Positions 1 through 61,843 of a stretch of DNA of 64,000 nucleotides are shown piece by piece. This DNA comes from an uncultured Halobacteriales archaeon (GTDB lineage Archaea; Halobacteriota; Halobacteria; Halobacteriales; SKSH01), in the NCBI GenBank assembly GCA_964502835.1, contig CAZCYF010000004.1, positions 27,548 to 91,547 on the forward strand, written 5' to 3'. Within the stretch, counting starts at the first letter, position 1, and each line of letters starts with the position of its first letter. The notes beneath the pieces are model-generated. The model searched no databases and was not told the DNA's origin. It worked only from the letters and a program-made list of their open reading frames with translations. The position numbers were made by a program, and so were the translations under genes.

Positions 1-58
1 CCGAGCGATCACCGGTCCACAACCGAACGTCACTGGGGCGGCAACCGCACGAACACCG

Positions 59-475
59 TCATCCGCAGTGGCTACCGTCGAATCGAACGCTCGGCTCGCG
101 CCCATCGATGATTTCGGCAACGATGCGATTTTCCGGGTCCTCAGTACTACACGTGACGCGATAGAGGTGCGCCCACGTACTGCGACCGTTGAGCTCCACC
201 GCCACTTCAAGCAGGGTGTCGTTTGCTGCCTCGGTGATCGCTGATTCACGGATGACCGGTCCGCCGGGGACTGCTCCCGGCTGGGCTCCAATTCGAAAGG
301 TCCGATCAAGAACGACCTCGGACTCGGACTTCCTGACGGTGACGGCGGCTTCATGGTCGGCGTCCGTTTGGTTCCACAGTTCGAAGTGGACGGGCGCCTT
401 CGAATCCGTCCGGAATAGACAGCCGCCACCACCGAGGAGGAGACCAAGACTCAGCAAGAGCCAGCGGCGCTCCAT
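59..475 (-). CDS. Putative secreted lipoprotein (Tat-like signal with lipobox), function unknown
   Basis: From the ATG at 475 the protein reads MERRWLLLSLGLLLGGGGC: twin Arg, a hydrophobic stretch, then Gly-Cys, as in haloarchaeal lipoproteins. The longer ORF-track start (583) adds a non-signal-like extension. Confidence 0.6.
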   Translation of the reverse strand: MERRWLLLSLGLLLGGGGCLFRTDSKAPVHFELWNQTDADHEAAVTVRKSESEVVLDRTFRIGAQPGAVPGGPVIRESAITEAANDTLLEVAVELNGRSTWAHLYRVTCSTEDPENRIVAEIIDGREPSVRFDGSHCG

Positions 476-653
476 ACCGATTTCCCGGTCGTGAATGGGC
501 AAAATACTGCGGATAGGTGAAAGCTGGTTTGCGTCACACGTCACATCGTCCGAGGAAGACGATGAGACACGTCGATGAGCCACGTTCGATATGCAGAGTA
601 TGATGGAACCCAGCAGATTACCGGACCCTCGACGAGGCGGTGGCAGGGGTAGC

Positions 654-660
654 TATAAAT
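654..660 (+). promoter_or_regulatory. TATA box of the KstD-like gene
   Basis: TATAAAT lies 25-31 nt upstream of ATG 685, the usual spacing for a leaderless haloarchaeal transcript. Confidence 0.7.
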
Positions 661-663
661 GGT

Positions 664-681
664 ATTAAACGGACGTTTAAT
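664..681. promoter_or_regulatory. Candidate TetR operator (inverted repeat)
   Basis: ATTAAACG-GA-CGTTTAAT has perfect 8-bp arms and sits between the TATA box and the start codon. A TetR gene lies directly downstream of the regulated gene. Confidence 0.7.
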
Positions 682-684
682 TCC

Positions 685-2397
685 ATGGTGGATTGGGACT
701 ACACGACTGACGTCGTCATCGTCGGGTCCGGGGCGGGAGGCATGGTCAGCGCGCTCTACGCCCACCATCACGGGCTCGATGCGATCATCCTCGAAAAGAC
801 CGATACCTACGGTGGATCCTCGGCGCTCTCCGGCGGCGGGCTGTGGATTCCCGCGAACCATCTGATGGAGCAAGAGGGCGTCGGGGACAGCATCGAGAAG
901 GCTCGGACGTATCTCCAACACACCGTCGGCGACCGCGTGCCGCAGGTCAAACAGGACGCCTACCTCGAACACGCCCACGAGATGGCGCGCTGGCTGGCCG
1001 GTCACACACGCATGGAGTTCACCCGCATGGACGGCTACTCCGATTACTATCCGGAACGACCAGGTGGTATGAGCGAGGGGCGCGGCATCGAGGGGAAACC
1101 GTTCGATGGCACGAAGCTCGGCGAGACCTTTGACAACCTCAACACCTCCGATATGGAGGCGCCTGGTCCGCTGTCGTTCACGAGCGGCGAGTTTCGCAAC
1201 ATTGGCCTCGTCATGACGACCTGGCAGGGCAAGAAGACCGCCGCCAAGGTGGGGCTGCGGACGGTGAAAAACCTCATTCGAGGTGCCAAGCCGGTCACAA
1301 TGGGGGGTGCCCTCATCGGTCGGCTTCGCAAATCGCTGTTGGACAACGACATCCCGCTGTGGCTGAACGCGCCGTTTACCTCGTTCGTGCTCGAAGGTGA
1401 CCAGGTCGTGGGCGTCGTCGCCGAGCGCGCTGGCGAGGGGGAGGTCCACATCAAGGGTGAGCGTGGCGTGATCCTCGCTGCGGGGGGCTTTGCCCGCAAC
1501 GAAGCCATGCGCAAGGAGTTCCAGCAGGCGCCGATCACGGCCGATTGGACGGTCGCCAACGAGGGCAACACGGGCGATACGATCACCGCAGGGATGGAGG
1601 AGCTCGATGCCGCCGTCGACCTGATGGACGATGCATGGTGGGGCCCGGTGAGTACACCTCCCGACATGGACGATCCGATGTTTCACGTGGCCGAGCGAAA
1701 CGAGCCGGGGGCGATCATGGTCAACGGCCAGGGGCGTCGATACACGAACGAGTCCGCCTCCTACGTCGACGTGGGACACGCGATGTATGATGGCCACTCG
1801 GAGGACAACCCCCACATCCCATCCCACTTTATCATGGACAGCCGGTTCCGAAAGCGGTACGTCTTCGGGACGTTGATGCCTCGCCAATCCTTCCCTGAGA
1901 GCTACAGCGAATCCGGCTATTTGACGAAGGCAGACTCGCTCTCAGATTTGGCCCGGAAGCTCGACGTGCCTCCGGACAACCTGGTTGATGAGGTCGAGCG
2001 GTTCAACGAGTTCGCACGCCAAGGGACCGACGAGGACTTCGGCCGCGGTGAGAGCGCGTACGACCGGTACTATGGCGATCCGGCCCACGGGCCGAACCCG
2101 TGCCTGGGGACCATCGAGAACCCGCCCTACTACGCCGTGAAGTTCTGGCCAGGCGACCTCGGGACGAAAGGTGGGCTCCTCACCGACGAATGGGCGCGTG
2201 TGCTTCGCGAGGACGGCTCGATCATCCAGGGGCTATACGCCACCGGAAACAACATGGCGTCGGTCATGGGTCACACCTACCCCGGGCCGGGGTCGACGCT
2301 CGGCCCCACGACCACGTTCGGCTACATTGCCGTCACGGACATCGTCGAAAACGAGCCGCCGGAGGCGGCATCTGAGATCGTTGAACAGCAGCTATAA
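685..2397 (+). CDS. kstD: FAD-dependent 3-ketosteroid Delta1-dehydrogenase (KstD)-like flavoprotein
   Basis: Motifs: VGSGAGG...LEK FAD fingerprint, GGSSALSGGGLWIP, YSDYY, GVILAAGGF, RYTNESASY, DLGTKGGLLTD, GLYATGN, TYPGPGSTLG. These match the KstD branch of the FAD_binding_2 family. ATG 685 was chosen on TATA spacing. Confidence 0.8.
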   Translation: MVDWDYTTDVVIVGSGAGGMVSALYAHHHGLDAIILEKTDTYGGSSALSGGGLWIPANHLMEQEGVGDSIEKARTYLQHTVGDRVPQVKQDAYLEHAHEMARWLAGHTRMEFTRMDGYSDYYPERPGGMSEGRGIEGKPFDGTKLGETFDNLNTSDMEAPGPLSFTSGEFRNIGLVMTTWQGKKTAAKVGLRTVKNLIRGAKPVTMGGALIGRLRKSLLDNDIPLWLNAPFTSFVLEGDQVVGVVAERAGEGEVHIKGERGVILAAGGFARNEAMRKEFQQAPITADWTVANEGNTGDTITAGMEELDAAVDLMDDAWWGPVSTPPDMDDPMFHVAERNEPGAIMVNGQGRRYTNESASYVDVGHAMYDGHSEDNPHIPSHFIMDSRFRKRYVFGTLMPRQSFPESYSESGYLTKADSLSDLARKLDVPPDNLVDEVERFNEFARQGTDEDFGRGESAYDRYYGDPAHGPNPCLGTIENPPYYAVKFWPGDLGTKGGLLTDEWARVLREDGSIIQGLYATGNNMASVMGHTYPGPGSTLGPTTTFGYIAVTDIVENEPPEAASEIVEQQL

Positions 2398-2436
2398 GCA
2401 CTCCAGACCGCGTTCGACCACCAGTGAGGCTCACGA

Positions 2437-3060
2437 ATGAGCCACCCGATCCCCACGGACCAGCGCATCCGGGCGGCCGCGTTCCGCGCCCTGGCGGTGC
2501 AGGGGTACGCGAATCTCTCCATGCGCGACATCGGAGCGGAATTGGGCCAAAACCCCTCGATCATCTACCACTATTTCGACGGGAAGGACGACCTGTTGCG
2601 GTCGATGCTTGAGGTGTTCGTCGCGCACTTCCTCGACCGGCAGATCGATCAATCTGTCGGGGACCCGCGTGGTGAGCTCGACGCATTCGTCGACCAGCTC
2701 TTACATCCAGATCCCGAACGGGCGACTCGAATCTGGGAGGAGCCGCCGTCGGATCCCGGTGATGCCGTCAGGAAGGTGTACGTTGAGCTCTGGGCGCATG
2801 CGGCGTGGGATCGCAGGTTTCGCCAGCAGACGACCGAGGTCGAGAGTCGCCTGCAGCGTTCGATCGCGACCCTCATTCGCCAGGGGATCGAAGCCGGGCA
2901 GTTCCGCAACGTCGACGTCGACCGAGCGGCGGATCATATCTACTTTCTCACGAAGCAGGGGCTTCACACGCAGGCAACCACGAACCGGGATGACGCAACC
3001 AAACGGGCCAGTCAGCTGATTGACTCGGTTATCGACGACTTGGCCGTCGACGGCGATTGA
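2437..3060 (+). CDS. TetR/AcrR family transcriptional regulator
   Basis: N-terminal HTH (IRAAAFRALAVQGYANLSMRDIGAELGQNPSIIYHYFDGKDDLL) and a TetR_C-like tail (LIRQGIEAGQFR). Confidence 0.92.
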   Translation: MSHPIPTDQRIRAAAFRALAVQGYANLSMRDIGAELGQNPSIIYHYFDGKDDLLRSMLEVFVAHFLDRQIDQSVGDPRGELDAFVDQLLHPDPERATRIWEEPPSDPGDAVRKVYVELWAHAAWDRRFRQQTTEVESRLQRSIATLIRQGIEAGQFRNVDVDRAADHIYFLTKQGLHTQATTNRDDATKRASQLIDSVIDDLAVDGD

Positions 3061-3692
3061 GGTGACAACGACTCGGTTTGGTTCGATCCCCCGTCAGGGC
3101 ATGTCGGATCCGATGGTGATCGACACGGGAAAGCGACACCTCCACGCGAGACGTCGACCCGGCAATAGTGGGGACGGAATCGGAGGTGATCACCGATCCC
3201 AAGCACGGGGCCATGTTGTTGGTGGCCCACGGTTGACTCAATCGGATCGTCGCTGTTCAGCCATATATTCCCAAATCTCTGCACAGCCACAGCTACCCTC
3301 GAACTCGGCGTGAACATCGTGGCCGTCGGAATCTCCGTCCTCGCCGGATTCCGGATGTTGGCGATCCGATTCGTCGCCCATCAGGAGCGAGTTGGATGTC
3401 AGGTGTCATCAATTGATCGGCGACCCCGGTCATGCCTGGGTTCGGCCCCACCCGACTTCGAGGCGGTTCAATATCGGGCCAGATGGGACGAGCCACCGAC
3501 CGCGCCTTGTCGGGGGCGACCGCGTACGGTGCGACCTCCCGGCGCGCGAACGGGCTAGTCAGGTCGTGTGCAGGGGTGATCGGGAGCTGGTACGGAACGG
3601 TTTGCTGATCCTGCATGGTCCATCAGGGCGATCGACCAACGGTCCGCATGCTGCGGCGCAAAACGGGGCAATCAGACCAGGTATATTCCAAT

Positions 3693-3727
3693 CTTTTATC
3701 CCCGTCCACGTCTTGTAACGATTACAA
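3693..3727 (+). promoter_or_regulatory. TATA box plus inverted repeat upstream of the YegP-repeat gene
   Basis: CTTTTAT at 3693-3699. TTGTAA-CGA-TTACAA at 3713-3727 ends 1 nt before ATG 3729. Confidence 0.55.
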
Positions 3728-3728
3728 T

Positions 3729-5231
3729 ATGTCAGGGCAAACATCGGGCAACTTCCTATACAGAATCTATCGAGATCGCATCGGTGAGCCGACAACCCAC
3801 GATGAGGTCCGAGGATACTGGATCTTCCTGACGGGTCTCGCCCTGTCACTCATCGGGATAGCGCTGTTTCTCCTGAGCGAATCGGCGGCCGGCGCCAGCG
3901 AGTTCACGCTTCGAGAATTGAGCATTTTCGTCGCGGCAGTCGGGCTCGCGATGCTGGTTGCGGGACCGATCATTCGGCTCCCGTTGCGACGATGGGCGAA
4001 CTACGGCGCCTACCTCGGCCAACTGGTCGCATTTTTGGCCGCCGTTTGGTTTCTCATCGTCTTTCCCCAGGACTGGAGCGTTGCAACTGGTAACCAACCC
4101 GTCATCATGGTCTATGGCGCCGGGATCCTCATCATCACGGTCGGCGGCCTGATCGCACCCGTTCTCGCCGGGGCCCGTCGTGAAGATCTCGAGGCAAGCC
4201 AGGCCATGGCCAGCGCACTCGAAGACGAGCTCGAACGAGCGCGAGAGACTACACGGTCCGTCAGGGGCGATTTCGAGGCACAGTTGAATGCGCTGCACGA
4301 CAGCCAGGGTCGGTTCGAAGTCTTCCAAGACCGGGGCGACGAATGGCGCTGGCGGCTTCGTCACCGCAATGGCAACGTCATTGCGGACAGTGGTGAGGGC
4401 TATACACGAAAACACAACGCCAACAAAGGGTTGCAAAGCGTCCGACGAAACGCCCTTGGAGCCACCATCTTGCTCATCGAACCCGAGGAGGAACTCCCAG
4501 AGGAGGGCGACTCGTTCGAGCCGGTCGACGCCCGTCCGAGCCAAGCCACCTTCGAGGTCTTTGCGGATCAACGCGGCGAGCATCGCTTCCGCCTTCGACA
4601 CGATAACGGCAACATCCTCGCCGACGGGGGCGAGGGATACGACTCGGCCAGCAATGCCCGTCGCGCCATTGAACGGCTTCGTGAAACCGTCGGTCCGGCG
4701 AACTATCTCCGGTTCGATCCGACCGGGTTCGAGGTCTACCTAGACGCAGCAGGTGAATGGCGGTGGCGACTCGTCCACCGCAATGGCAACATCCTGGCCG
4801 ATAGCGGACAGGGCTATTCACGTCGACATGACGCAAACCGGGCCGTCGCCCGGATCCGAGACGGGATTGATGACCTCGAGTTCGAAGTCTATGCGGATCA
4901 GGGCGATGAGTTCCGCTGGCGGCTCCTCGCGAGCAACGATCGAATCCTGGCTGACAGTGGTGAGGGCTATCGCGATCGAACCGAAGCCGAGGCGGCCGTG
5001 CGCCGGATTCACGAATACGCCCCCGATGCCGACATTCTCGAGATTGGACAGGCGACCTTCGAGATATATGAGGACCGCGACGGGGAGCACCGCTGGCGGT
5101 TGCGCCACCGCAACGGCAACATTCTCCTTGACAGCGGTGAGGGCTACGCTGACCGCACACGGGCCCGGGAGTCGATTGAGGGGATCAAGCTGAACGCCCC
5201 GACCGCCGGTCTTGAGACGGTTTCGGAATAG
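3729..5231 (+). CDS. Membrane-anchored protein with five tandem YegP/DUF1508 domains
   Basis: About four N-terminal hydrophobic helices and a coiled-coil-like linker, then five FE(V/I)(Y/F)xDxxxE(W/H/F)R(W/F)RL...ADxGxGY units starting at 4314, 4551, 4728, 4881 and 5058. Confidence 0.85.
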   Translation: MSGQTSGNFLYRIYRDRIGEPTTHDEVRGYWIFLTGLALSLIGIALFLLSESAAGASEFTLRELSIFVAAVGLAMLVAGPIIRLPLRRWANYGAYLGQLVAFLAAVWFLIVFPQDWSVATGNQPVIMVYGAGILIITVGGLIAPVLAGARREDLEASQAMASALEDELERARETTRSVRGDFEAQLNALHDSQGRFEVFQDRGDEWRWRLRHRNGNVIADSGEGYTRKHNANKGLQSVRRNALGATILLIEPEEELPEEGDSFEPVDARPSQATFEVFADQRGEHRFRLRHDNGNILADGGEGYDSASNARRAIERLRETVGPANYLRFDPTGFEVYLDAAGEWRWRLVHRNGNILADSGQGYSRRHDANRAVARIRDGIDDLEFEVYADQGDEFRWRLLASNDRILADSGEGYRDRTEAEAAVRRIHEYAPDADILEIGQATFEIYEDRDGEHRWRLRHRNGNILLDSGEGYADRTRARESIEGIKLNAPTAGLETVSE

Positions 5232-5388
5232 ACCCTCGGCCGGTGGCGGTCCTCGAGAGCGGTGGTTCGAGACGGCTGGTGTGCGGCCCGAAACTGAGGA
5301 GGAGATACGGCCGATATTCGGGCAGATGTGGTGTGAATGGTACACACTGTCATTATGGATTTTTTAGATGTTAGGTCACGATCTACGC

Positions 5389-6087
5389 ATGGTCCACGAT
5401 CCGTTTGGCCGGGCGGTCCGTGACCAGTACCGCGGTGAACGGTCCGAGCCCCTCATCGACCGAGATGGTCCACACACCAGACGCCACGACATCGACAGCT
5501 GGTATTTCGGTGACCATGATCCCACCAGCTGGCGCGACCAGTGGATCGACGGCCCGTTTCTCGATATCGGCGCCGGTGCCGGACGCGATGCACTGTATCA
5601 CCAAGACCGTCACGAGACCGTCGCGATCGACATCAGCCAGCATCTCGTCGACCTCATGGCCGATCGCGGTGTGACCGACGTTCGTCAGGTCGACATGTTC
5701 GAGCTACGAGACGAATTTGGGCGCGATCGGTTTCGCTCGGTCCAAGCGATCGGGACACAGGTCGGACTCGCGGGATCAATGAGGGGCGTTACGACGTGGC
5801 TCCACGACCTCGCCGCCATCACCACGCCCGATGCGGTGGCCGTGCTCGACAATTACTCACCGACGATCGAGGCGGTGAACGACCTGTTCGCTTATCGGCC
5901 GGATCCAACGCCAGGACTGGCCCACCGGGTCTTTCATGTGGTCTACGAGGGCGACGTTGGGCGAACCCTCCTGTTTCGTCTCTTTAGCGTCGAACGTCTA
6001 CAGGATGCCGCGACCGACACCCCGTGGGAGCTGGTGGGTGTGAACCGCCGGGGGGCGCGTTGGCGCGCCGCCTTAGAAAAGTCCTGA
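5389..6087 (+). CDS. Class I SAM-dependent methyltransferase
   Basis: Motif I FLDIGAGAGRD, post-I VAIDIS, haloarchaeal-type N-terminus DPFGRAVRDQY. A T-rich TATA-like box is at ~5360-5366. Confidence 0.85.
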   Translation: MVHDPFGRAVRDQYRGERSEPLIDRDGPHTRRHDIDSWYFGDHDPTSWRDQWIDGPFLDIGAGAGRDALYHQDRHETVAIDISQHLVDLMADRGVTDVRQVDMFELRDEFGRDRFRSVQAIGTQVGLAGSMRGVTTWLHDLAAITTPDAVAVLDNYSPTIEAVNDLFAYRPDPTPGLAHRVFHVVYEGDVGRTLLFRLFSVERLQDAATDTPWELVGVNRRGARWRAALEKS

Positions 6088-6181
6088 CAGCCAGGTCGCG
6101 CCGGTAATTTGCCCGGATCTGACGGTATATGGGCGAGAATTGCTGCCTGAAAACCCTGCCCGCAGCTCCACCGCCACTTGC

Positions 6182-6664
6182 TCATGGGGGCGGGTTCGTC
6201 CGCCACTTGATCATCTTGTGACGATTGATCGCATAGCCATGGTCCTGGTAGAGCCCGATCGCCGCTGAATTCTCGGCGTTTACCGACAGGGTGATGGTGT
6301 CGCACTCGCGGTTGATGTCGTCCGCTTCGATCGCCTCGAGGAGGGCGGTAGCGATCCCCTGGCGACGGGCGTCCGGTCGGACGTACACTTCGTCGACGTT
6401 GAAGGTCGCACCGCGGGCGAAGACGGGTGGGGCGGGCTGGACGGCTCCGGCTGCATATCCGAGAGGTGTCGCGTCGGATTCCGCAAGCAGCAGTCGGTAC
6501 TCGTCGCTGGCCAGCCGATCCCGTCGATACTCGATCGCGTCCTGACGGATGTCTTCGGCAAGTTCGTTATAGGGATCTAGGTCGGCCATCTCCCTGGCGA
6601 ACGGCAACCAGAGTTCGTCGACGATGGTGGGCGCGTCCTCGACGTCGGCCGGGCGGATGTCCAT
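6182..6664 (-). CDS. GNAT family N-acetyltransferase
   Basis: EVYVRPDARRQGIATALL (acetyl-CoA motif A) and NSAAIGLYQDHGY (motif B). The start was set at MDIRPA. Confidence 0.9.
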   Translation of the reverse strand: MDIRPADVEDAPTIVDELWLPFAREMADLDPYNELAEDIRQDAIEYRRDRLASDEYRLLLAESDATPLGYAAGAVQPAPPVFARGATFNVDEVYVRPDARRQGIATALLEAIEADDINRECDTITLSVNAENSAAIGLYQDHGYAINRHKMIKWRTNPPP

Positions 6665-6765
6665 GGAGACCGACACCGACGATGCCCAAGAAAGCATTTC
6701 GGCTCGACCGTTGTGGGTTTGTGGGACCACCAGTGCTGGCCGTCGAGACAGGGCTCGAAGCGTCG

Positions 6766-8685
6766 TCAATCAGTGTCGATGTCGTGCTCGGCAGCGCGTC
6801 GACGGGTCTCCTCGATGAACGACCGTGGTAGGCGGTCGATCTCGCCGGCCTGAACGCGCCACAGGTTTGCATACAGGCCATCAGCCTCGAGGAGGGCCCC
6901 ATGCGTTCCGCGTTCGACGATGTGCCCGTCCTCGATGACGAGGATGCAGTCTGCATCACGCACCGTCGAGAGCCGGTGGGCGATGACGAACGTGGTACGA
7001 TCGGCCGCGAGCTCGTCGATCGAGCGCTTGATCAACAGCTCCGTTTCCGTATCGACGGCCGAGGTCGCCTCGTCAAATACGAGGATGTCCGGATCCTGCA
7101 GGATCGTCCTCGCAATCGCGACTCGCTGCCGTTGGCCACCTGAGAGTTTCACCCCGCGCTCGCCGATGTCGGTGTCGTAGCCGTCTTCGAGGGCGGAAAT
7201 GAACTCGTGAGCCTCGGCTTGCTTGGCAGCCTCGATCATCTCGCGGTCGCTGGCGTCGAACGACCCGTACATGAGGTTCTGCCGGACCGTTCCGTCGAAC
7301 AGGAAGTTCTCTTGACCGACGTAGCCGATCGCCCGGCGGAGGCTGGCCAGAGTGACGTCTCGCACGTCGTGGCCGTCCACGCGAACCGCCCCCTCGTCGA
7401 CGTCATGCAACCGCAAGAGAAGCTTGACGATGGTCGTCTTCCCGGCACCCGTCGGTCCAACGAAACCGACGGTCTGTCCGGGATCGACCTCGAAGTCGAC
7501 GTCCTCAAGCACCGGATGTTCGTCGTAGCCGAAGGTGACCCCGTCGTAGGTGACGCCGCCCCGAACGGGATCGAGGTCGATCGCATCGGGAGCATCCTTG
7601 ATTCGCACCGGGAGCTCCATGAGACCGAGGATTCGCTTCGTGGAGGCCCGTGCATCCTCGTATCGGTCGACGATGTTGCTCATCTGGGCAAGCGGGTTAA
7701 CCAGCTGTTCGGTCAGCAACAAGAACGTGACGAGGTTGCCAACGCTCAGCGTGCCCGAAAGCGGGCCTGGTGGCCCCTCGATGATCCATAAACCCCCGAC
7801 GATGAACGTCGCGATGAACGAAAGCGACGTGAGGGCCTGCAGCCCCGGCCGGTAGATGAAGTTCAGCCGCAGAGCGAGCCAGTCCAGCCGAAAGTACGTG
7901 TAGGAATGGTCACGAACGCGCTCGTCCTCGTACTCCTCGGTGTTCGAGGCCTTGATCACCTGGATGCCGTTGAGGTTGTTCTCCAGGCGGCTGTTGAGGT
8001 CCCCAACGGAGGCACGGATGTCGGTATATCGTTCCTCGGCGAGACGCATGAACCACCAGGTGAAGACCGCCGCGAGCGGAATGATGACCAGCGTCACCAT
8101 CGCCAGCTGGGCGTTGATCCAAAAGAGGATGATCGCCGTACCGACGATCATCACACCGAGCTGGATGGCCTCGCCCATCATGCTATCCAGGAACTGTTCG
8201 AGGCGGTTCGTGTCGTTCGAAAGGATCGACAACAGCTCGCCGGTTTGGACCTCGTTGAAGAAGTCCATGTCCAGGCGTTGCATCTTCTGGTAGGCCGCCG
8301 TCCGTACCTCGTGTTTGACCCGGTGTGAGAACAGGTTGAGCGAGGACATCCGGACGAAGTTGAGGAAGGCCTGGCCGACCATGGCCACGGCCATGAGCCC
8401 GATCACGAGCCAGAGCTGATCGACGGTGTCGGTCGGCAGCCATGCCGTCGGGACCACTGGTAACGCGAAGGGCTGATCGCCGCGGAGGACGGAATCGATT
8501 GCTACCCCCAACAATACCGGTGGGACGAGGGCCAGGAATCGAGCGCCAACGCTCGAGAGAATCCCCACAACGAACCACCGGCGGTTGCCGTCGCCGTACC
8601 GCATAAACAGCTGGGTGAGGGGGCGATCAACCGATTCTCGATGTCGTTCGATGGTGTCAGGATCGAACGGCTGTCCCGTGCTCAT
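6766..8685 (-). CDS. ABC exporter, fused permease/ATP-binding protein (MsbA/MdlA-like)
   Basis: Six-TM N-terminal domain, Walker A GPTGAGKT, signature LSGGQRQ, Walker B ILVFDEATS, H-loop IAHRLST. Confidence 0.93.
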   Translation of the reverse strand: MSTGQPFDPDTIERHRESVDRPLTQLFMRYGDGNRRWFVVGILSSVGARFLALVPPVLLGVAIDSVLRGDQPFALPVVPTAWLPTDTVDQLWLVIGLMAVAMVGQAFLNFVRMSSLNLFSHRVKHEVRTAAYQKMQRLDMDFFNEVQTGELLSILSNDTNRLEQFLDSMMGEAIQLGVMIVGTAIILFWINAQLAMVTLVIIPLAAVFTWWFMRLAEERYTDIRASVGDLNSRLENNLNGIQVIKASNTEEYEDERVRDHSYTYFRLDWLALRLNFIYRPGLQALTSLSFIATFIVGGLWIIEGPPGPLSGTLSVGNLVTFLLLTEQLVNPLAQMSNIVDRYEDARASTKRILGLMELPVRIKDAPDAIDLDPVRGGVTYDGVTFGYDEHPVLEDVDFEVDPGQTVGFVGPTGAGKTTIVKLLLRLHDVDEGAVRVDGHDVRDVTLASLRRAIGYVGQENFLFDGTVRQNLMYGSFDASDREMIEAAKQAEAHEFISALEDGYDTDIGERGVKLSGGQRQRVAIARTILQDPDILVFDEATSAVDTETELLIKRSIDELAADRTTFVIAHRLSTVRDADCILVIEDGHIVERGTHGALLEADGLYANLWRVQAGEIDRLPRSFIEETRRRAAEHDIDTD

Positions 8686-9081
8686 CAGCGAGGTAGGTGG
8701 CCCGGGCTTTCGGGGCTGCCCGAATAAACTGCACGACCGCCCGGAGGGTGCACCTCGAAGCATGACACCGATGTCGCTCCGACGATCCGACCGATCCATC
8801 GTCGAGCCAGGGGTGTAGAGGTGGAGGTGGGCTGGGACGGGTCGTTATCAGCAGGAAATCATGTCACGTTCCATACTGGAATGGTGGCCAGCAAATGTTT
8901 ACCACTTATCACGTCGTGGACATCGAGTCGATGCCTACCCCAGACCTCGCAATCGTCCCGTTCTGTCACCTCCGTGCCGTCGCCCCTCCCCGTCCCGTCC
9001 AACGTCTCCGGATCGGTTCACAAGCAGTCGGACCTCCTCGGCCAAGTTACCCCGGAGCGTCGATTGGGCGGTGGTGACACG

Positions 9082-9633: not shown

Positions 9634-10809
9634 TTATGAGCCAACGTCGGAACCGACGCCGTGATCTTCGAGTAGTTCGCGCAGGCGTTCGTCGAGAACA
9701 TCGCCGTTCGACACGACGGCGTTGACGAGCAACCGTCCCCCGATCGTCGCCGGACTGATCACCGTATCGGCACCGGCATTTCGCATCTTGGCGACGTTTT
9801 CCGTGTTCGAGGCGGCGGCCACGATGCGGACGTCCGGAGCGACGTCGTTGGCCGTGAGGATGGCGAGGACGTCATGCGCGTCATCCTCCGTGGCCACGAT
9901 CACGGCCCGCGCTCGCTCGATCCGGGCGCGTCGCAGGGTCTCCTCGTCCGTGGCGCTCCCTTCGAGGACGGCGTGACCCTGCGCCTGGAGGCGCGAGACG
10001 GCTTGGTCGTCCGTCTCGAGGACCAGATAGTCGACGCCGGGCGCGAGGCCCTCAAGGATCGACGGCGTCAGCTCGCCGACGCCCAGCACGAGCACATGAT
10101 TCTCCAGTGCTTCGAGTTCGGATTCGCTCATCCGTCCGAGTGCCTTCGCGAATCGCGATTCGATGGCGGGTGTCAATAAGGTACCGAGGGCGACCGCGAA
10201 GCTGACCGTTGCGAAGACCACCACGCTCAAGCTGAACAGCCGGGCGATCTGCGTGATCGGGACGGCGTCACCGTAGCCGACGGTGGTGGCGGTGATGGCC
10301 GTGTAGTAAAAGGCATCGAGGAGGGTGCGAATCTCGCGGAATTCGTCACGAAGCGCGTACGAGCCGAAGGTGCCGTAGGCGAAGGCACCCACCACCGCGA
10401 TGGCGGCGGCCACCTGGGTGGCATCGAGCGTCAACGGCCGGGTGAAGTTGTCCCGATTGGTCGCGAGCGTTGGCAACGCCGCCAGCGACAGGACCACCAG
10501 CGGCATTGAGAGGACGCTCGCCTGCACCAGCCCCTGCATCGACGACAGCGGCAACAACAACAGGGCCCCGTACCACCCGGCCCGGTAGCCTTGTCGGAGG
10601 AGATAGGCGTTCAAGAGCAAGAAGAAGCCCGTCATCGCGCCGGTGAACCCGGCTGCATCGGTGACGATCGGTGGGATAATCGGTTCGATCAGCCCGATGG
10701 GGACCGCGGTGGTCAGATGGAGGATCCCGGTGGCGAGCGACAAGAGCCCGACGAGACCGGTGAGCACGACCGCGAGGCGTCGACCGGCGAGTCGCTGGGC
10801 CACCCCCAT
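9634..10809 (-). CDS. Potassium channel protein with RCK/TrkA-N domain
   Basis: Selectivity filter TTVGYGD, cytoplasmic HVLVLGVG...GSATDEETLRRARIERA and NVAKMRNAGADTVISP, plus extra N-terminal TM helices. Confidence 0.92.
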   Translation of the reverse strand: MGVAQRLAGRRLAVVLTGLVGLLSLATGILHLTTAVPIGLIEPIIPPIVTDAAGFTGAMTGFFLLLNAYLLRQGYRAGWYGALLLLPLSSMQGLVQASVLSMPLVVLSLAALPTLATNRDNFTRPLTLDATQVAAAIAVVGAFAYGTFGSYALRDEFREIRTLLDAFYYTAITATTVGYGDAVPITQIARLFSLSVVVFATVSFAVALGTLLTPAIESRFAKALGRMSESELEALENHVLVLGVGELTPSILEGLAPGVDYLVLETDDQAVSRLQAQGHAVLEGSATDEETLRRARIERARAVIVATEDDAHDVLAILTANDVAPDVRIVAAASNTENVAKMRNAGADTVISPATIGGRLLVNAVVSNGDVLDERLRELLEDHGVGSDVGS

Positions 10810-12844: not shown

Positions 12845-13951
12845 ATGACCACTGCAACACGGCGCTCAGTCGCGGCTGTCCTGGTGGCGTTGCTCCTGGC
12901 CAGCGCGATGGCCGTCGGTCCAGCCGCCGTCGGCGCGAACAACCATGACGACGTCACATGTGGATACCCAATGGAGTACACTGACGTTACCGGGACGACG
13001 GTGACCCTCGAGTCCGAGCCCGAACGGATCGTGACGCTCTCCCCAAGTGCCGCCCAGACACTCTGGCGGATCGATGCCCGCGAGAAGGTCGTCGGTGTGT
13101 CGATGCATGCGGGCTTCCTCGAGGGAGCCGGTGAGCGGACGAACGTCTCGGCCGATCCGCTGTCGACGGACCTCGAGACCGTCGTCGCACTCGAACCCGA
13201 CCTCGTCATCGCACCGAACGTGACGTCCACGGCTGAGGTCGCGGACCTGCGTGATCTCGGACTCGACGTGGTGCATTTCGGTGCGGCCACCTCCGTCGAT
13301 GACGTGATCGACAAGACGGCGACGATCGGACGACTCGTCGGTGCCTGCGAGGGGACCTCCGAAACGATCGACCAGATGGAAACGACCCTCCAGACCATCG
13401 CCGACGAGGTGCCACCTGCCGCCGAGCAGCCCACCGTCTATTACACCCTTGGCGACGGTTTCACCCCCGGGGAGGGCACCTTCCAAAGCGATGCCATCGA
13501 ACGGGCGGGCCTGCGAAACCTCGCGGTGGAGGCGGGGATTCAGGGTTGGAACCAGTTGAGCGAGGAGATCGTGGTCGATCGGGATCCCGAGTGGATTGCC
13601 CACACAAACCGGTTCCAAACACCACCAGTGAGCGAGGGTGTCTCCGCCGTCACCGCGATGCAGGAGGAGCAGATCATCACCCTTGATCCGAATCGCATCA
13701 GTCAGCCGTCCCCGGCGATAATCGACGCGGTCAAAGCAATCCATGAAGCGGTCTACGGTGAGCTCTCGACGCCGACACCAACGCCGCCGTGGACGTTCAC
13801 GCCAACACCAACCGCGACCTCGACGGACACGGCGGTTGCGACGACAACGGCCTCAGATGGGGCCGACGGGATTCCGGGATTCGGTCCGCTCGCGGCCGTC
13901 ACGGCGGTCCTCCTGACCCTCGCGTTCCTCGCCAGGAGACGCCAGTCCTAA
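12845..13951 (+). CDS. btuF: Cobalamin ABC transporter substrate-binding protein with PGF-CTERM anchor
   Basis: [16 protein letters not shown] and [14 protein letters not shown] periplasmic-binding motifs, Thr/Pro linker, C-terminal IPGFG + TM helix + RRRQS. Divergent from btuCD. Confidence 0.85.
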
Positions 13952-18261: not shown

Positions 18262-19524
18262 GTGGCGACGAGTGATCCGTTGGTCGGCTGGTTAGACGCC
18301 CGCGGAGCAACCCGAGCCGTCCTCGTGCTGGGAATCCTGAGCGGGCTGGCGGTGCCGGTGTACTTCTTCGTCCTGGCTACCGAAACGCCCCTGGCGTGGG
18401 ATTTCATCGCGTACTTCGCCGCAGCCGAGGCGTTCGTTGCGGGGGACCCGTTCATCGGATTGACACCACCTTTCGGTGACGGTCAATACGTGTACCCCCC
18501 CGTGGCCGTCCTCGGCTTCGTCCCGCTGCTCGTCCTCGGCGACTGGTTTCTCGCCTACCTGGTCCACTCCGCCGTGAACCTGGTCGCATTGGGGGGATTG
18601 GCCGTCCTTTGCGTTCGCGAACTCGACCGCCTCGGGATCCGGTTGGATCGCATCGACCGGGTCCTGATTCCGGGCTTTTGCCTGGTCAGCCTGTACCCGA
18701 TGGTCACCCTCGGGCTCGGGCAGATCGACCCGATCGTCGCCGTGCTCGTGGCGGTGGTGTTTCTCCACGTCGAACGGCGACGTGATGACGTCGCCGGCAT
18801 CGCGCTTGGGGTCGCCGCCGTCGTGAAGATCTTCCCGGCGGCGTTCGGAATCTGGCTGGTACGAAGCCGTCGCTGGCGGGCAGCGGCGATCAGCGTCGGG
18901 AGTGGCGCCATCCTGGGGATCGCCAGCGTCGTCATCTTCGGCGTCGATGTGCATCGGGAGTATCTCCGGTTGCTCACCACCGAACGGAGCCGACTCACCG
19001 CCTTCGCCGAGGGGTTGAGCCCGGACTTCTTCGACGTGACGCTGGCGCGACCGCTGACGGCGATGCTGCCGGGGCTCCCGTCGATGATCTACGTGGTCCT
19101 CGCCGTGGCGATCGTGGGGCCCCCGCTTGCGGTAACCTACCGACGGCTCGATACCCGCATCGACCGCCATCTCGCCTACCTGGCAACGATCATCGCGGTC
19201 ATTATCGCATCTCCGGCGAGCAACCTGAACCACCTGCTGTACCTCTATTTCCCGCTGGTCGTGAGCATCTACGCGATCGACCAATCCCGCGCCAAAGGGT
19301 TGATCCTCGTCGGGGGCGTCCTGGTGCTCCTGCCCGTCCAGCCGGAACAGCTCGTCGACGTGCTCAATGCGGCAGGATTCGGGGTCGAGGCCGTCGGCCC
19401 ACTTGAGGCGGTTGTCCGACGGGTGTTCACCCACGTTGGGCTCCCGTTGATCGGTTCGCTGTTGGTCCTCGGTGGCTGTGCGTGGGCGTCGATCAACGAT
19501 CGACGGATCTCAGCCGTCCGCTAG
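18262..19524 (+). CDS. GT87/DUF2029-like membrane glycosyltransferase (GT-C fold)
   Basis: [25 protein letters not shown] motifs in a polytopic membrane protein. The ORF-track 661-aa frame includes an off-frame overlap with the MFS gene. Confidence 0.75.
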
Positions 19525-23911: not shown

Positions 23912-25372
23912 CTACCCCTTGATATTGCAGATCGGATACGTCCGAACCACGGACGTGCCGATTCCCAGTTCGTTGGACACGCGCACCACCTCGTCGACGT
24001 CCTTGTACACCCCCGGTGCCTCCTCGGCGATGGTCGCCCCGCTTTCGGCCCGCACGTAGATCTGGTGGCGATCGCGGAGCTCGTCCTGCACGTCGCCCCC
24101 CCAATAGTCTCGCTTCGCCTGGGTTCGGCTCATAAGCCGTCCGGCGCCGTGGGCGGTCGACCCAAACGACACCTCCATCGACTGCTCGCCGCCACGGAGG
24201 ATGTACGACCCGGCGCCCATGCTCCCGGGGATGATCACTGGTTGGCCGACGTCGCGGTACTCCGCCGGAACGTCGGGATTGCCGGGCGGGAACGCTCGCG
24301 TCGCCCCCTTGCGGTGGACGTACAGCTCGCGCGATGCACCGTCGACCTCGTGGACCTCCCGTTTGCCGATGTTGTGGGCGACGTCGTAGAGATGGTCCAT
24401 TCCGAGGGCCGCCCAGTCGGCGTCGAACACCTCCTCGAAGACCTCTCGGACCGCGTGCATGATGACGTGGCGATTGGTCCACGCGTAATTGATTGCGGCG
24501 CACATGGCGCCGTAGTAATCCTCGGCCAGTTGCGACCCCGCCGGTGCCGCCGCCAGCTCACGGTCGGGCAGGCGCTGTAACAATCCCTGGTGGCGCTGTT
24601 CGATCTTGCGGAGGTAATCCGTACAGACCTGGTGGCCGAGGCCGCGGCTGCCACAATGGATGAGTACGCCGACCTGGCCGGGTTGGAGACCGTACGCCTT
24701 CGCCACCGCCTCGTCGAACACGTCGGTGACTCGTTGGACCTCCAGAAAGTGATTGCCGCTGCCGAGGCTACCGACTTGCTTCATGCCGCGCTGTTTGGCC
24801 TTCGTGGAGACCTTTGTCGCGTCCGCCTCGGGACGACGGCCCTCGTCCTCCGTCGTCAGGAGGTCGTGTTCGACTCCATAGCCGTGCTCGACCGCCCACT
24901 CGGGGCCGCGTTCAAGGATCTCGTCGAGTGTCGATTCGTCGGTCTCGATGATGCCACCGGCTCCAAGCCCACAGGGGACGGCGTCGAACAGCGCGTCAAC
25001 GAGGTCTTCCTCATGGCCCCGGACGTCGCGATAATCGAGATTCGTTTTGACGAATCTTACGCCACAATTAATGTCGTAGCCGATCGCTCCTGGCGAGATG
25101 CACCCGTTTTCGGCGTCGATGCCGGCAACCCCGCCGACCGGGAATCCATAGCCCTGGTGGCCGTCGGGCATACAGATCGCGTGTTTCTGGATGCCGGGCA
25201 GGTGCGTCGTGTTGCGCAGTTGCTCGAGGGTCTTGTCCTCCGAAATCTCCTCGAGCAACGCCTCGCTCGCATAGACCCGGGCAGGGACGCGCATCGAACC
25301 CTCCTGGGGCAACTCCCACACGTGCTCGCGGACCTTCCTGAGGGTGAACTCTCCCGCCTGGAACGTCGTCAT
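23912..25372 (-). CDS. rtcB: RtcB family RNA ligase (tRNA-splicing ligase)
   Basis: MPDGHQGYGFPVGG, YDINCG, GSGNHF, HCGSRG, HRKGATRA, PGSMG, AHGAGR. The start was set at MTTFQAG. Confidence 0.97.
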   Translation of the reverse strand: MTTFQAGEFTLRKVREHVWELPQEGSMRVPARVYASEALLEEISEDKTLEQLRNTTHLPGIQKHAICMPDGHQGYGFPVGGVAGIDAENGCISPGAIGYDINCGVRFVKTNLDYRDVRGHEEDLVDALFDAVPCGLGAGGIIETDESTLDEILERGPEWAVEHGYGVEHDLLTTEDEGRRPEADATKVSTKAKQRGMKQVGSLGSGNHFLEVQRVTDVFDEAVAKAYGLQPGQVGVLIHCGSRGLGHQVCTDYLRKIEQRHQGLLQRLPDRELAAAPAGSQLAEDYYGAMCAAINYAWTNRHVIMHAVREVFEEVFDADWAALGMDHLYDVAHNIGKREVHEVDGASRELYVHRKGATRAFPPGNPDVPAEYRDVGQPVIIPGSMGAGSYILRGGEQSMEVSFGSTAHGAGRLMSRTQAKRDYWGGDVQDELRDRHQIYVRAESGATIAEEAPGVYKDVDEVVRVSNELGIGTSVVRTYPICNIKG

Positions 25373-25480
25373 AGGCCATTGATGGGTTCGCCTTGGGGTA
25401 TAGGTTGTGACCGCCCACTGGCCGACGGCCGCCCCTCGGGGACCGGGGGGCTTTTGCCGACGCCCGGTGGGGACTTCACC

Positions 25481-35566: not shown

Positions 35567-35617
35567 GACCTCCTCTCGTCAGGGCCCGACAATAAGGACG
35601 TGGAAGCGATCGCGCGC

Positions 35618-61021: not shown

Positions 61022-61066
61022 TCGGAGCCGCGGTTTTAATAGCCGGCTCCCCCTTCCCGCGCTCGT

Positions 61067-61792: not shown

Positions 61793-61843
61793 GCGCCACG
61801 GGACATCCACCGACGGGATCGAGCGCCGGCCCTTCGGGAGACC

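What the first reader, a model, noticed from the sequence alone, without database searches (positions are those of the whole stretch)
685..2397. Apparently intact 3-ketosteroid Delta1-dehydrogenase (KstD) homologue in a halophilic archaeon
Seen in the sequence: the GSGAGG...LEK FAD fingerprint plus SDYY, RYTNESASY and TYPGPGSTLG. Established: in Rhodococcus erythropolis SQ1 KstD1 the equivalent segments (PDYY, RYLNESLPY, FYPGPGVPLG, as I recall them) carry the catalytic Tyr119, Tyr318, Tyr487 and Gly491. Fumarate reductase/L-aspartate oxidase relatives lack this combination. Steroid ring A dehydrogenation is characterised mainly in Actinobacteria and Proteobacteria, and I know of no characterised archaeal pathway. 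Inference: this archaeon may dehydrogenate 3-ketosteroids or related cyclic ketones, for example sterols from algae or brine shrimp, or bile acids. The gene was probably acquired horizontally. No other steroid genes are visible in this window.
Basis: partly seen in the sequence, partly recalled or inferred. Interest (0 to 1): 0.85.

Follow-up and report, generated by a model that had tools for sequence, protein, structure and literature searches.

The report
Archaeal steroid ring-A dehydrogenase gene
A salt-loving archaeon carries an intact, salt-adapted copy of a bacterial-type enzyme that desaturates ring A of 3-ketosteroids, paired with its own repressor but with no other steroid-degradation genes nearby, so it is a real but not unprecedented find.

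Summary
The gene belongs to the 3-ketosteroid delta1-dehydrogenase (KstD) family, in the AcmB/AcmB2 subgroup that carries the extra membrane-associated domain.

- **Similarity:** it is 57% identical to AcmB2 of Sterolibacterium denitrificans, which has been assayed on steroids. It shares 11 of 14 pocket residues with AcmB2, and its model superposes on AcmB (TM 0.91).
- **Host:** the host is a deep-branching, uncultured member of the Halobacteriales.
- **Haloarchaeal clade:** the gene sits in a monophyletic clade of 17 sequences (bootstrap 100). The 16 members analysed are acidified (pI about 4.7), and three compared pairwise show purifying selection (dN/dS about 0.2). The clade is nested among bacterial KstDs, which fits an old horizontal acquisition.
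- **Regulation:** the gene is always paired with a TetR regulator. An 18-bp palindrome lies between a TATA-like box and the start codon.
- **Partners:** most haloarchaeal relatives also carry an orthologous short-chain dehydrogenase, and one carries a P450. This window lacks both, and it has no ring-cleavage or side-chain genes.
- **Caveat:** the catalytic tetrad also occurs in cyclohexanone dehydrogenase, so it proves the chemistry, not the substrate.

Verdict: a new member of a known kind, of moderate interest.

The parts
654..660 (+). TATA-like box TATAAAT, centred about 28 nt upstream of the ATG. This fits a leaderless archaeal transcript.
   Evidence: Read directly from the sequence. Its role as a promoter is inferred from the usual haloarchaeal promoter geometry (own knowledge).
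664..681 (.). Perfect 18-bp palindrome ATTAAACggacGTTTAAT. It extends imperfectly to 659-686. It is the candidate operator of the adjacent TetR repressor and overlaps the likely transcription start.
   Evidence: Sequence. It is the only match in 64 kb even with 3 mismatches allowed, against 0 expected from shuffles. The inverted-repeat tool reports arms 659-671 and 674-686. Palindromes of the same 7-4-7 layout end 1-8 nt before the kstD ATG in L004, L090, L086 and L005. L004 and L090 have identical half-sites, found nowhere else in the 93 loci.
685..2397 (+). kstD-like gene: a 570-aa FAD-dependent 3-ketosteroid delta1-dehydrogenase homologue of the AcmB2 type.
724..741 (+). GSGAGG dinucleotide-binding (FAD) fingerprint, aa 14-19.
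   Evidence: Pfam FAD_binding_2, DAO and NAD_binding_8 hits at the N-terminus.
1045..1047 (+). Tyr121 codon, equivalent to KstD1 Tyr119 and AcmB Tyr118.
   Evidence: invariant in 120 homologues.
1132..1302 (+). aa 150-206, corresponding to the membrane-associated domain (the 'loop') of AcmB-type KstDs. It is absent from KstD1. Its net charge is +4, in a protein whose remainder is -40.
   Evidence: The alignment to 7p18 is continuous, whereas the alignment to 4c3x leaves query residues 150-202 unaligned. The segment is modelled as helices 167-173 and 180-199. Charge count. The description of the subgroup comes from PMC9736390.
1762..1764 (+). Tyr360 codon, equivalent to KstD1 Tyr318 and AcmB Tyr363, the catalytic base that removes the 2-beta proton.
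   Evidence: mechanism from PMC9736390 and PMC5348764.
2278..2292 (+). Tyr532-Pro-Gly-Pro-Gly536, equivalent to KstD1 Tyr487...Gly491 and AcmB Tyr536...Gly540. These residues polarise the C3 carbonyl.
2437..3060 (+). TetR-family regulator (207 aa), 39 nt downstream on the same strand. It is the conserved partner of kstD in haloarchaea.
   Evidence: Pfam TetR_N plus TetR_C_6. Orthologues at 41-56% identity lie next to kstD in L004, L005/L084, L086 and L090.

Best explanation
The gene encodes a cytoplasmic, membrane-docking FAD flavoprotein of the AcmB2 branch of the 3-ketosteroid delta1-dehydrogenase family.

**Proposed mechanism** (taken from the characterised enzymes and inferred for this protein):
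1. Tyr532 and the backbone amide of Gly536 polarise the C3 carbonyl of a 3-oxo polycyclic substrate.
2. Tyr360, assisted by Tyr121, removes the 2-beta proton.
3. The 1-alpha hydride passes to N5 of FAD, giving the 1-ene product.
4. The reduced flavin is probably re-oxidised by the respiratory menaquinone pool at the membrane. The basic segment at aa 150-206 would hold the enzyme there. This step is inferred.

**Regulation.** Expression is probably repressed by the co-transcribed TetR protein, which would bind the 18-bp palindrome over the transcription start. An unknown hydrophobic ligand, most simply the substrate, would relieve the repression. This is inferred.

**Origin.** An ancestor of a small haloarchaeal clade took the gene from bacteria long ago, and it then became salt-adapted. 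In most relatives it works alongside an orthologous short-chain dehydrogenase that would generate the 3-ketone.

**Role in this genome.** Here only the dehydrogenase and its repressor remain together. I therefore expect a stand-alone ring-A desaturation step, serving biotransformation, detoxification or electron harvesting, rather than a complete steroid catabolic pathway.
For: **Family placement**
- Pfam FAD_binding_2 matches the full length.
- The best NCBIfam models are the two 3-oxosteroid 1-dehydrogenase equivalogs, at 700 and 696 bits. ChcC1/ChcC2 score 343/336, flavocytochrome c 191 and SdhA 34.
- PDB sequence search: AcmB 1e-124, KstD1 1e-93, cyclohexanone dehydrogenase 1e-34, delta4-KstD 6e-19.
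- The protein is 57% identical to P0119. The N- and C-termini of P0119 match the AcmB2 cloning primers. AcmB2 converts androstenedione, cholest-4-en-3-one and diosgenone (PMC8220720).
- In an NJ tree the haloarchaeal clade has bootstrap 100. It lies inside a clade with AcmB2, Chloroflexota and Heimdallarchaeia that has bootstrap 91.

**Active site and fold**
- The catalytic tetrad is invariant in 120 homologues.
- Of the 14 pocket positions, 11 are identical to AcmB2 and 8 to KstD1 (residue list from PMC5348764).
- The AlphaFold model has pLDDT 92.3. TM-scores are 0.91 to AcmB, 0.83 to KstD1, 0.76 to cyclohexanone dehydrogenase and about 0.6 to flavocytochromes.

**Evidence that the gene is functional and resident**
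- pI is 4.75. The haloarchaeal clade averages 15.3% Asp+Glu and 2.3% Lys, against pI 6.05 in the Chloroflexota relatives.
- dN/dS is 0.15-0.23.
- The exact gene with the same neighbours occurs in three independent assemblies.

**Regulation and partners**
- A TetR gene lies next to kstD in 8 of 9 haloarchaeal contexts.
- Palindromes lie at the same position upstream of the ATG.
- Orthologous SDRs (66-75% identical) accompany kstD in 6 of 9 contexts.
- A CYP109-like P450 is part of the cluster in Halobium palmae.

**Steroid context in bacteria**
- Bacterial relatives at 47-50% identity, and AcmB2 itself, sit in steroid catabolic clusters.
Against: - No activity has been measured for any archaeal member.
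- The protein falls short of both NCBIfam equivalog cut-offs (700 vs 788; 696 vs 789). The assayed enzyme AcmB2 falls short as well (745 and 725), so this carries little weight.
- The catalytic tetrad is shared with cyclohexanone dehydrogenase (PMC10966990), so chemistry alone does not fix the substrate.
- Neither the window nor the 5 kb upstream holds an SDR, a P450, KshAB, Hsa-type or side-chain genes.
- Haloarchaea make no sterols, so any substrate must come from outside the cell.
- The SDR partner's closest named solved structure is a cyclohexanol dehydrogenase.
- The quinone acceptor, the membrane docking and the TetR ligand are all inferences.
Confidence: 0.72

Rival explanations
1. The chemistry is the same but the natural substrate is different. 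The enzyme would desaturate a non-steroid 3-oxo alicyclic or terpenoid compound found in brines, such as a cyclic ketone, a triterpenoid or a carotenoid-derived ketone. Any steroid activity would be incidental.
For: - The catalytic tetrad is shared with cyclohexanone dehydrogenase (PMC10966990), and the ChcC1/ChcC2 4-oxocyclohexanecarboxylate dehydrogenases are detectable homologues in the same superfamily (343 and 336 bits).
- The partner SDR's second-best solved relative is a cyclohexanol dehydrogenase, and ChcB-type models score about 200 bits.
- There are no steroid catabolic genes in the window.
- Haloarchaea do not make sterols (own knowledge).
Against: - Identity to cyclohexanone dehydrogenase is only 22-23% (TM 0.76), against 57% to steroid-active AcmB2 and TM 0.91 to AcmB.
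- ChcC1/ChcC2 models score 343 and 336 bits, against cut-offs of 1000 and 900.
- The steroid pocket positions are 11/14 identical to AcmB2.
- The extra domain typical of sterol-handling KstDs is retained.
Confidence: 0.18
2. The gene is one part of a complete steroid degradation pathway. The other genes (ring opening, side-chain oxidation) would lie elsewhere in the genome, which would make this the first steroid-degrading archaeon.
For: - Only 64 kb of the genome, plus 5 kb upstream, could be inspected.
- Bacterial relatives sit in full catabolic clusters.
Against: - None of nine haloarchaeal contexts, each covering up to 20 kb, holds KshA/Rieske, HsaA-D, thiolase, acyl-CoA dehydrogenase or CoA-transferase genes.
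- The only alpha/beta-hydrolase in the window scores 84 bits on the HsaD model, whose cut-off is 400.
- A survey of RefSeq found no such pathway in Archaea (PMC4810484).
Confidence: 0.07
3. The gene is bacterial contamination, a chimeric assembly, or a decaying relic with no function.
For: - The gene lies 685 nt from the window edge.
- It sits in a block of slightly lower GC, 58-64% against 64-69% elsewhere.
Against: - The same gene with haloarchaeal neighbours (HxlR/HVO_A0261_N, DUF7139) occurs on three independent assemblies.
- It lies on the same contig as archaeal housekeeping genes.
- Its pI of 4.75 and GC3 of 0.81 match the host.
- The frame is intact and dN/dS is about 0.2.
Confidence: 0.02

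Closest known systems
AcmB2 of Sterolibacterium denitrificans (GenBank SMB21450.1; P0119)
   Same: - 57% identity over 95% of the length.
- Same extra domain and same catalytic tetrad.
- 11 of 14 pocket residues identical.
- Both lie in the same clade, bootstrap 91.
- AcmB2 is assayed on androstenedione, cholest-4-en-3-one and diosgenone (PMC8220720).
   Different: - The host here is an archaeon.
- The surface is acidified: pI 4.75 against 7.6.
- AcmB2 lies among CoA-transferase, thiolase-like, ChsH2-type and hydratase genes. This gene has only a TetR partner.
AcmB, cholest-4-en-3-one delta1-dehydrogenase of S. denitrificans (PDB 7p18)
   Same: - Best solved relative: E 1e-124, with a continuous alignment over residues 7-554 that includes the membrane-associated domain.
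- TM 0.91/0.93, rmsd 2.4 A.
- Y118/Y363/Y536/G540 correspond to Y121/Y360/Y532/G536.
   Different: - About 40% identity.
- Several pocket positions differ, for example G336/F338 in AcmB against F333/V335 here.
KstD1 of Rhodococcus erythropolis SQ1 (PDB 4c3x/4c3y)
   Same: - Same fold (TMt 0.93) and the same four catalytic residues.
- 8 of 14 pocket residues identical.
   Different: - KstD1 lacks the roughly 55-residue domain at query residues 150-206.
- 37% identity.
- It belongs to actinobacterial steroid clusters controlled by KstR.
Cyclohexanone dehydrogenase of Alicycliphilus denitrificans (PDB 8am3/8am6/8am8)
   Same: Same superfamily and the same Tyr/Tyr/Tyr/Gly tetrad. It carries out the same alpha,beta-desaturation of a cyclic ketone (PMC10966990).
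   Different: - 22-23% identity, TM 0.76, E 1e-34.
- It has a small pocket closed by Trp113/Tyr415/Phe496 (PMC10966990).
KstR/KstR2-type TetR repressors of actinobacterial steroid genes
   Same: A TetR-family repressor placed next to a kstD gene, with a palindromic site over the promoter.
   Different: - No orthology was shown. The best NCBIfam hits are weak BetI/RefZ/FadR matches, all below their cut-offs.
- The palindrome has a 7-4-7 layout and does not fit the KstR motif as I recall it (a lead from memory only).

Membership tests
3-ketosteroid delta1-dehydrogenase (KstD, EC 1.3.99.4) | Two-domain FAD flavoprotein of the fumarate reductase/succinate dehydrogenase superfamily with an N-terminal GxGxxG motif | tested here: met
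   - Pfam FAD_binding_2 covers residues 9-539 of the protein and positions 1-414 of the 414-position profile, E 8e-84.
- GSGAGG is at aa 14-19.
- The model superposes on KstD1 and AcmB.
3-ketosteroid delta1-dehydrogenase (KstD, EC 1.3.99.4) | Catalytic Tyr119, Tyr318, Tyr487 and Gly491 (KstD1 numbering) | tested here: met
   The equivalents are Y121, Y360, Y532 and G536. They are invariant in 120 homologues. Cyclohexanone dehydrogenase has the same tetrad, so it is necessary but not sufficient.
3-ketosteroid delta1-dehydrogenase (KstD, EC 1.3.99.4) | Steroid-binding pocket residues as listed for KstD1 (S52, F116, F294, V296, I352, I354, L447, P490, V492, P493) | tested here: met
   Across all 14 listed positions, 8 are identical to KstD1 and 11 to AcmB2. 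The remainder are residues also seen in assayed R. ruber KstDs, except M398 (which AcmB has) and S537 (PMC5348764 Table 2).
3-ketosteroid delta1-dehydrogenase (KstD, EC 1.3.99.4) | Closer to assayed KstDs than to non-steroid or delta4 paralogues | tested here: met
   - 57% identity to AcmB2.
- KstD models score 700 bits, against ChcC1 343, flavocytochrome c 191 and SdhA 34.
- PDB ranking.
- Tree.
- TM ranking.
3-ketosteroid delta1-dehydrogenase (KstD, EC 1.3.99.4) | Score above NCBIfam equivalog cut-offs (NF005882: 788; NF009478: 789) | tested here: inconclusive
   The scores of 700 and 696 bits are below the cut-offs. The assayed enzyme AcmB2 scores 745 and 725, also below, and Halobium, Phototrophicus and Heimdall relatives likewise fall short. 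The cut-offs therefore exclude this whole branch and do not discriminate function.
3-ketosteroid delta1-dehydrogenase (KstD, EC 1.3.99.4) | Measured 1,2-dehydrogenation of a 3-ketosteroid | not testable with these tools
   This needs expression and a DCPIP/PMS or HPLC assay in high salt.
AcmB-type KstD subgroup with membrane-associated domain | Insertion of about 55 residues between the first catalytic Tyr and the second half of the FAD domain, absent from KstD1 | tested here: met
   - The alignment with 7p18 is continuous, while the 4c3x alignment breaks at query residues 150-202.
- TMq is 0.91 against 0.83.
- The segment is modelled as two helices.
- It carries net charge +4 in a -40 protein.
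- The subgroup is described in PMC9736390.
Complete aerobic (9,10-seco) or anaerobic (2,3-seco) steroid degradation pathway | KshA/KshB, HsaA-D and side-chain beta-oxidation genes, or AtcABC, present with kstD | tested here: not met
   None of these genes is in the 64-kb window, in the 5 kb upstream, or in eight other haloarchaeal contexts. The rest of the genome could not be searched.
Cyclohexanone dehydrogenase / ChcC1-ChcC2 alicyclic ketone dehydrogenases | Sequence membership (NCBIfam NF053676/NF053677; similarity to 8am3) | tested here: not met
   - 343 and 336 bits, against cut-offs of 1000 and 900.
- 22-23% identity to 8am3/8am8.
TetR-family ligand-responsive repressor with palindromic operator | N-terminal TetR HTH, C-terminal ligand domain, and a palindrome at the regulated promoter | tested here: met
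   - TetR_N (E 1e-13) plus TetR_C_6.
- A unique 18-bp palindrome at 664-681.
- Equivalent palindromes in four orthologous loci.
- DNA binding and the ligand are not testable here.

The most novel reading that the evidence does not exclude
Some Halobacteria, and perhaps Heimdallarchaeia, may carry a small inducible module that modifies steroid ring A: a short-chain dehydrogenase, a KstD and a TetR repressor, sometimes with a P450. With it they could oxidise sterol-derived compounds released by algae, brine shrimp or fungi in brines and pass the electrons to menaquinone. That would be the first steroid metabolism shown in Archaea. It would also be a source of KstD enzymes that tolerate salt and probably solvents.
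Probability: 0.35. Interest if true: 0.7.

Novelty: new member of a known kind. Interest (0 to 1): 0.48.

Why it matters
- **Archaeal steroid metabolism is unreported.** Steroid ring-A dehydrogenation has been described only in bacteria and fungi. A genome survey found no steroid catabolic pathway in Archaea (PMC4810484), and I found no paper in the held library that links haloarchaea or Heimdallarchaeia with KstD.
- **It points to a simpler use of the enzyme.** The gene here is conserved, salt-adapted and under repressor control, yet has no downstream pathway. That suggests some archaea carry out a single oxidative steroid transformation, not full degradation.
- **It has practical interest.** KstDs are industrial catalysts for 1-dehydro steroid drugs, and their substrates need co-solvents or cyclodextrins. 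A halophilic enzyme that works at low water activity would be worth testing.
- **It is testable now.** Two cultured strains carry orthologues: Halobacterium bonnevillei PCN9 and Halobium palmae.

Tried and rejected
- **Genome scan with the single protein:** the first genome-contig scan found nothing. The repeat with the 16-sequence alignment worked, but it used only two peptide patterns, so absence from other haloarchaeal genomes is a lower bound.
- **First structure prediction:** with only 16 close sequences it gave pLDDT 51.9 and was discarded. The 120-sequence alignment gave pLDDT 92.3.
- **Cluster look-ups for the organism's name:** these returned no names. The lineage was placed using MetK homologues instead.
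- **Structural papers:** the primary papers on KstD1 and AcmB (PMC3853301, PMC9960185) are not held. The pocket residue list came second-hand from PMC5348764.
- **One transferred block:** I tested whether the TetR-P450-KstD-SDR module of Phototrophicus methaneseepsis and the Halobium palmae module are the same transferred block. They are not: the partner genes are only 21-33% identical or show no match. The similarity is therefore one of function, not of shared descent.
- **Crude gene caller:** my GC3-based caller picked antisense frames at 34.3-37.0 kb, 60.3-61.8 kb and 18.3-19.4 kb. These were corrected.
- **Inverted-repeat tool:** with my settings it missed the 7-4-7 palindromes in L004, L005 and L090. 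I read them by eye and confirmed one by pattern search.
- **Sister group:** the sister group of the haloarchaeal clade is unresolved. Chloroflexota as sister has only 39% bootstrap.
- **Contamination and pseudogene readings:** both were rejected, as set out under the rival explanations.
Full report
**1. The observation.**
Window 685-2397 (+) is an intact reading frame. It has an ATG at 685 and a TAA stop at 2395-2397, and encodes 570 aa. A longer version starting from GTG 640 is also open. ATG 685 is the likely start, for two reasons. Every haloarchaeal homologue begins MxDW/MxEW. A TATA-like TATAAAT at 654-660 lies about 28 nt upstream, the geometry of a leaderless archaeal transcript (promoter geometry from own knowledge).

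**2. The host.**
The window is an ordinary stretch of haloarchaeal chromosome.
- It encodes an archaeal-type AdoMet synthetase, RtcB, aIF-2B, an eRF1-fold protein, DacZ, Lhr, PEP synthase, PurD, PyrB, TyrRS, proteasome alpha, SBDS, Elp3, NFACT and RNase P p30.
- It also holds families known from Haloferax, namely HVO_2718-like and DUF7139.
- The median pI of 55 called ORFs is 4.76.
- The AdoMet synthetase finds only Halobacteria. It is 83% identical to two uncultured Halobacteriales MAGs and at most 69% identical to any cultured genus. At 90% identity it is a singleton.
- The host is therefore a deep, uncultured lineage of the Halobacteriales.

**3. What the protein is.**
- Pfam FAD_binding_2 matches end to end.
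- The two best NCBIfam models are both 3-oxosteroid 1-dehydrogenase equivalogs, at 700 and 696 bits. ChcC1/ChcC2 reach 343/336 bits, flavocytochrome c 191 and SdhA 34.
- Both top scores are below the curated cut-offs of 788 and 789. However AcmB2, an enzyme with measured activity, is also below them at 745 and 725. The cut-offs simply exclude this branch.
- Among solved structures the order is AcmB of Sterolibacterium denitrificans (7p18, 1e-124), KstD1 of R. erythropolis (4c3x, 1e-93), cyclohexanone dehydrogenase (1e-34), urocanate and fumarate reductases, and delta4-KstD (6e-19).
- The large protein search returned P0119 of S. denitrificans at 57% identity. Its first residues (MSGETF) and last residues (RSAV) match the primers used to clone acmB2 (GenBank SMB21450.1). 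That enzyme converted androstenedione, cholest-4-en-3-one and diosgenone (PMC8220720).

**4. Active site and fold.**
- The equivalents of KstD1 Y119/Y318/Y487/G491, which are AcmB Y118/Y363/Y536/G540, are Y121, Y360, Y532 and G536. They are invariant in 120 homologues.
- I took the 14 pocket residues listed for KstD1 (PMC5348764, Table 2) and mapped them. The window protein is identical to KstD1 at 8 positions and to AcmB2 at 11. The other three are T396, M398 and S537.
- A first model built from 16 sequences was unusable (pLDDT 52).
- A second model built from 120 sequences reached pLDDT 92.3. It superposes on AcmB with TM 0.91/0.93 and rmsd 2.4 A, on KstD1 with 0.83/0.93, on cyclohexanone dehydrogenase with 0.76 and on flavocytochromes with about 0.6.
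- The alignment to AcmB is continuous, whereas the alignment to KstD1 skips query residues 150-202. The protein therefore has the extra membrane-associated domain that defines a large KstD subgroup (PMC9736390).
- That segment keeps a net charge of +4 while the rest of the protein is -40. This fits a conserved contact with the acidic archaeal membrane (inference).

**5.
Cyclohexanone dehydrogenase has the same Tyr/Tyr/Tyr/Gly tetrad, as Y195, Y376, Y570 and G574 (PMC10966990). The tetrad therefore shows alpha,beta-desaturation of a cyclic ketone, not a steroid substrate. The steroid assignment rests instead on three things: the 57% identity to AcmB2, the shared pocket, and the extra domain. 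By contrast, identity to cyclohexanone dehydrogenase is only 22-23%.

**6. Evolution.**
- Sixteen 90%-identity clusters at 65-82% identity come from NCBI, JGI, ENA and Logan data. They include Halobium palmae and a Halobacteriota MAG.
- With Halobacterium bonnevillei they form a clade with 100% bootstrap. That clade sits inside a 91%-supported clade with AcmB2, Chloroflexota and Heimdallarchaeia.
- AcmB and the actinobacterial KstDs that lie in steroid clusters fall outside that clade.
- The sister group is unresolved (39% bootstrap).
- A motif-based scan of one genome per species found only two haloarchaeal genomes among 228 hits. That number is a lower bound, because only two peptide patterns were used.
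- The haloarchaeal proteins are acidified, at pI 4.5-4.9 with 15.3% Asp+Glu and 2.3% Lys. The Chloroflexota relatives have pI 6.05 and the Heimdall ones 8.1.
- The gene's GC3 matches its neighbours, and dN/dS is 0.15-0.23.
- Flanking genes differ between genomes. In MAG C5M10_19 the cassette lies between two tRNA genes.
- The gene sits in a block of at least 14 kb with slightly lower GC.
- Taken together, this points to an old acquisition from bacteria, followed by adaptation and some movement among haloarchaea.

**7. Neighbourhood.**
In the window the gene is followed, after 39 nt, by a TetR regulator. Across nine distinct haloarchaeal contexts:
- A TetR gene is adjacent in eight. These fall into two orthologous groups.
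- A classical short-chain dehydrogenase is adjacent in six. These are orthologous to each other at 66-75% identity.
- Halobium palmae adds a P450 whose best solved relatives are CYP109-type enzymes.

The window, the 5 kb upstream and MAG C5M10_19 have no SDR or P450 homologue.

The Chloroflexota bacterium Phototrophicus methaneseepsis has TetR-P450-KstD-SDR on one strand. Its partner genes are not orthologous to the archaeal ones, so the association recurs independently.

Bacterial relatives at 47-50% identity lie next to thiolase-like, acyl-CoA dehydrogenase, MaoC hydratase, KshB-like, HsaF-like and HsaG-like genes. AcmB2 itself lies among CoA-transferases, a ChsH2-type protein and hydratases.

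Nothing of that kind is in the window. The single alpha/beta-hydrolase scores 84 bits on the HsaD model, whose cut-off is 400, and the VOC-fold protein has no HsaC match.

**8. Regulation.**
A perfect 18-bp palindrome, ATTAAACggacGTTTAAT, lies at 664-681 between the TATA-like box and the ATG. It is the only match in 64 kb even with three mismatches allowed, against none expected. Palindromes of the same 7-4-7 layout end 1-8 nt before the kstD start codon in four other loci:

| Locus | Palindrome |
|---|---|
| L004 | TGATTGAttgtTCAATCA |
| L090 | TGATTGAccatTCAATCA |
| L086 | TGATTGAtcgaTTAATGA |
| L005 | TTACCGAccgtTCGGTAA |

The half-sites shared by L004 and L090 occur nowhere else in the 93 loci held. 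This is the expected picture for a TetR repressor sitting on the start of a leaderless transcript. DNA binding and the ligand remain inferred.

**9. Conclusion.**
The gene is a real, functional-looking, AcmB2-type 3-ketosteroid delta1-dehydrogenase in a haloarchaeon. It is repressor-controlled, anciently acquired and salt-adapted. It is most likely a stand-alone ring-A desaturation step, in relatives paired with a dehydrogenase that would make the 3-ketone, and not part of a degradation pathway.

It is a new member of a known kind, not a new kind. Orthologues are already in public databases, some labelled as such. Even so, I found no published work on archaeal KstDs in the held library, and a genome survey reported no steroid catabolic pathway in Archaea (PMC4810484). 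Interest is moderate. The claim is cheap to test because two cultured strains carry orthologues.

Noticed in passing
L004 9780-13032: In Halobacteriales MAG C5M10_19 the kstD-TetR cassette, plus one 120-aa ORF, lies exactly between tRNA-Met (9780-9854, -) and tRNA-Asn (12960-13032, -). tRNA genes are typical insertion hot spots.
   Followed up: partly
L086 4496-9258: Halobium palmae has a compact cluster: a CYP109-like P450, TetR and SDR on the minus strand, facing kstD on the plus strand. This is the fullest archaeal version of the module. Two GFO/IDH/MocA oxidoreductases follow it.
   Followed up: partly
L091 5829-10668: Phototrophicus methaneseepsis (Chloroflexota) has TetR-P450-KstD-SDR on one strand, next to Cas6, a Cas_NE0113-family (CRISPR-associated) gene and a TIR-domain gene. 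Its partner genes are not orthologous to the archaeal ones.
   Followed up: partly
P0069, P0074, P0096, P0098; L092 8001-9665: Heimdallarchaeia and other Asgard MAGs encode KstD homologues 53-58% identical to the window protein, forming their own clade. In L092 the gene lies near SDR, aldo-keto reductase and beta-lactamase-fold genes. I found no paper linking Heimdallarchaeia and ketosteroids.
   Followed up: partly
window 3615-5231: A 538-aa protein with an N-terminal DUF7139 (CdpA_N-like) membrane domain followed by five DUF1508 repeats. Its function is unknown.
   Followed up: no
window 1-9000 and L001 1-5000: A block of at least 14 kb around kstD has 58-64% GC, against 64-69% in the rest of the window. 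It holds accessory-type genes: a PAS histidine kinase, DoxX, HxlR, a methyltransferase, GNAT and an ABC exporter.
   Followed up: partly
window 34301-37021 (+), 60323-61810 (-), 18292-19434 (-): Three long ORFs (380-906 aa) with no Pfam match and Val/Arg/Leu-rich or Asp/Arg/Glu-rich composition are antisense artefacts of high-GC DNA. The real genes on the opposite strand are NFACT, Elp3, proteasome alpha, SBDS and a GT87 glycosyltransferase.
   Followed up: yes
window 23912-25630 (-): The longest RtcB ORF is 572 aa, but the Pfam match starts at residue 137. The true start is probably an internal Met near MTTFQAGEF.
   Followed up: no
window 52517-53722 (-): The AdoMet synthetase is a singleton at 90% identity. 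It is 83% identical to two uncultured Halobacteriales MAGs and at most 69% to any cultured genus, so the source organism is a deep, uncultured lineage. The kstD gene is 72% identical to the Halobacterium and Halobium copies. It is thus more conserved across these lineages than this housekeeping protein, which hints at gene exchange among haloarchaea.
   Followed up: partly
L084 9218-12619; L085 8907-9596; L087 1576-2208: Two distinct TetR orthologue groups accompany haloarchaeal kstD. Group A (window, L004, L086, L090, and downstream in L084) is 41-65% identical within the group. Group B (L085, L087, and upstream in L084) is 74-88% identical within the group. The two groups are about 27-34% identical to each other. 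H. bonnevillei carries both.
   Followed up: partly
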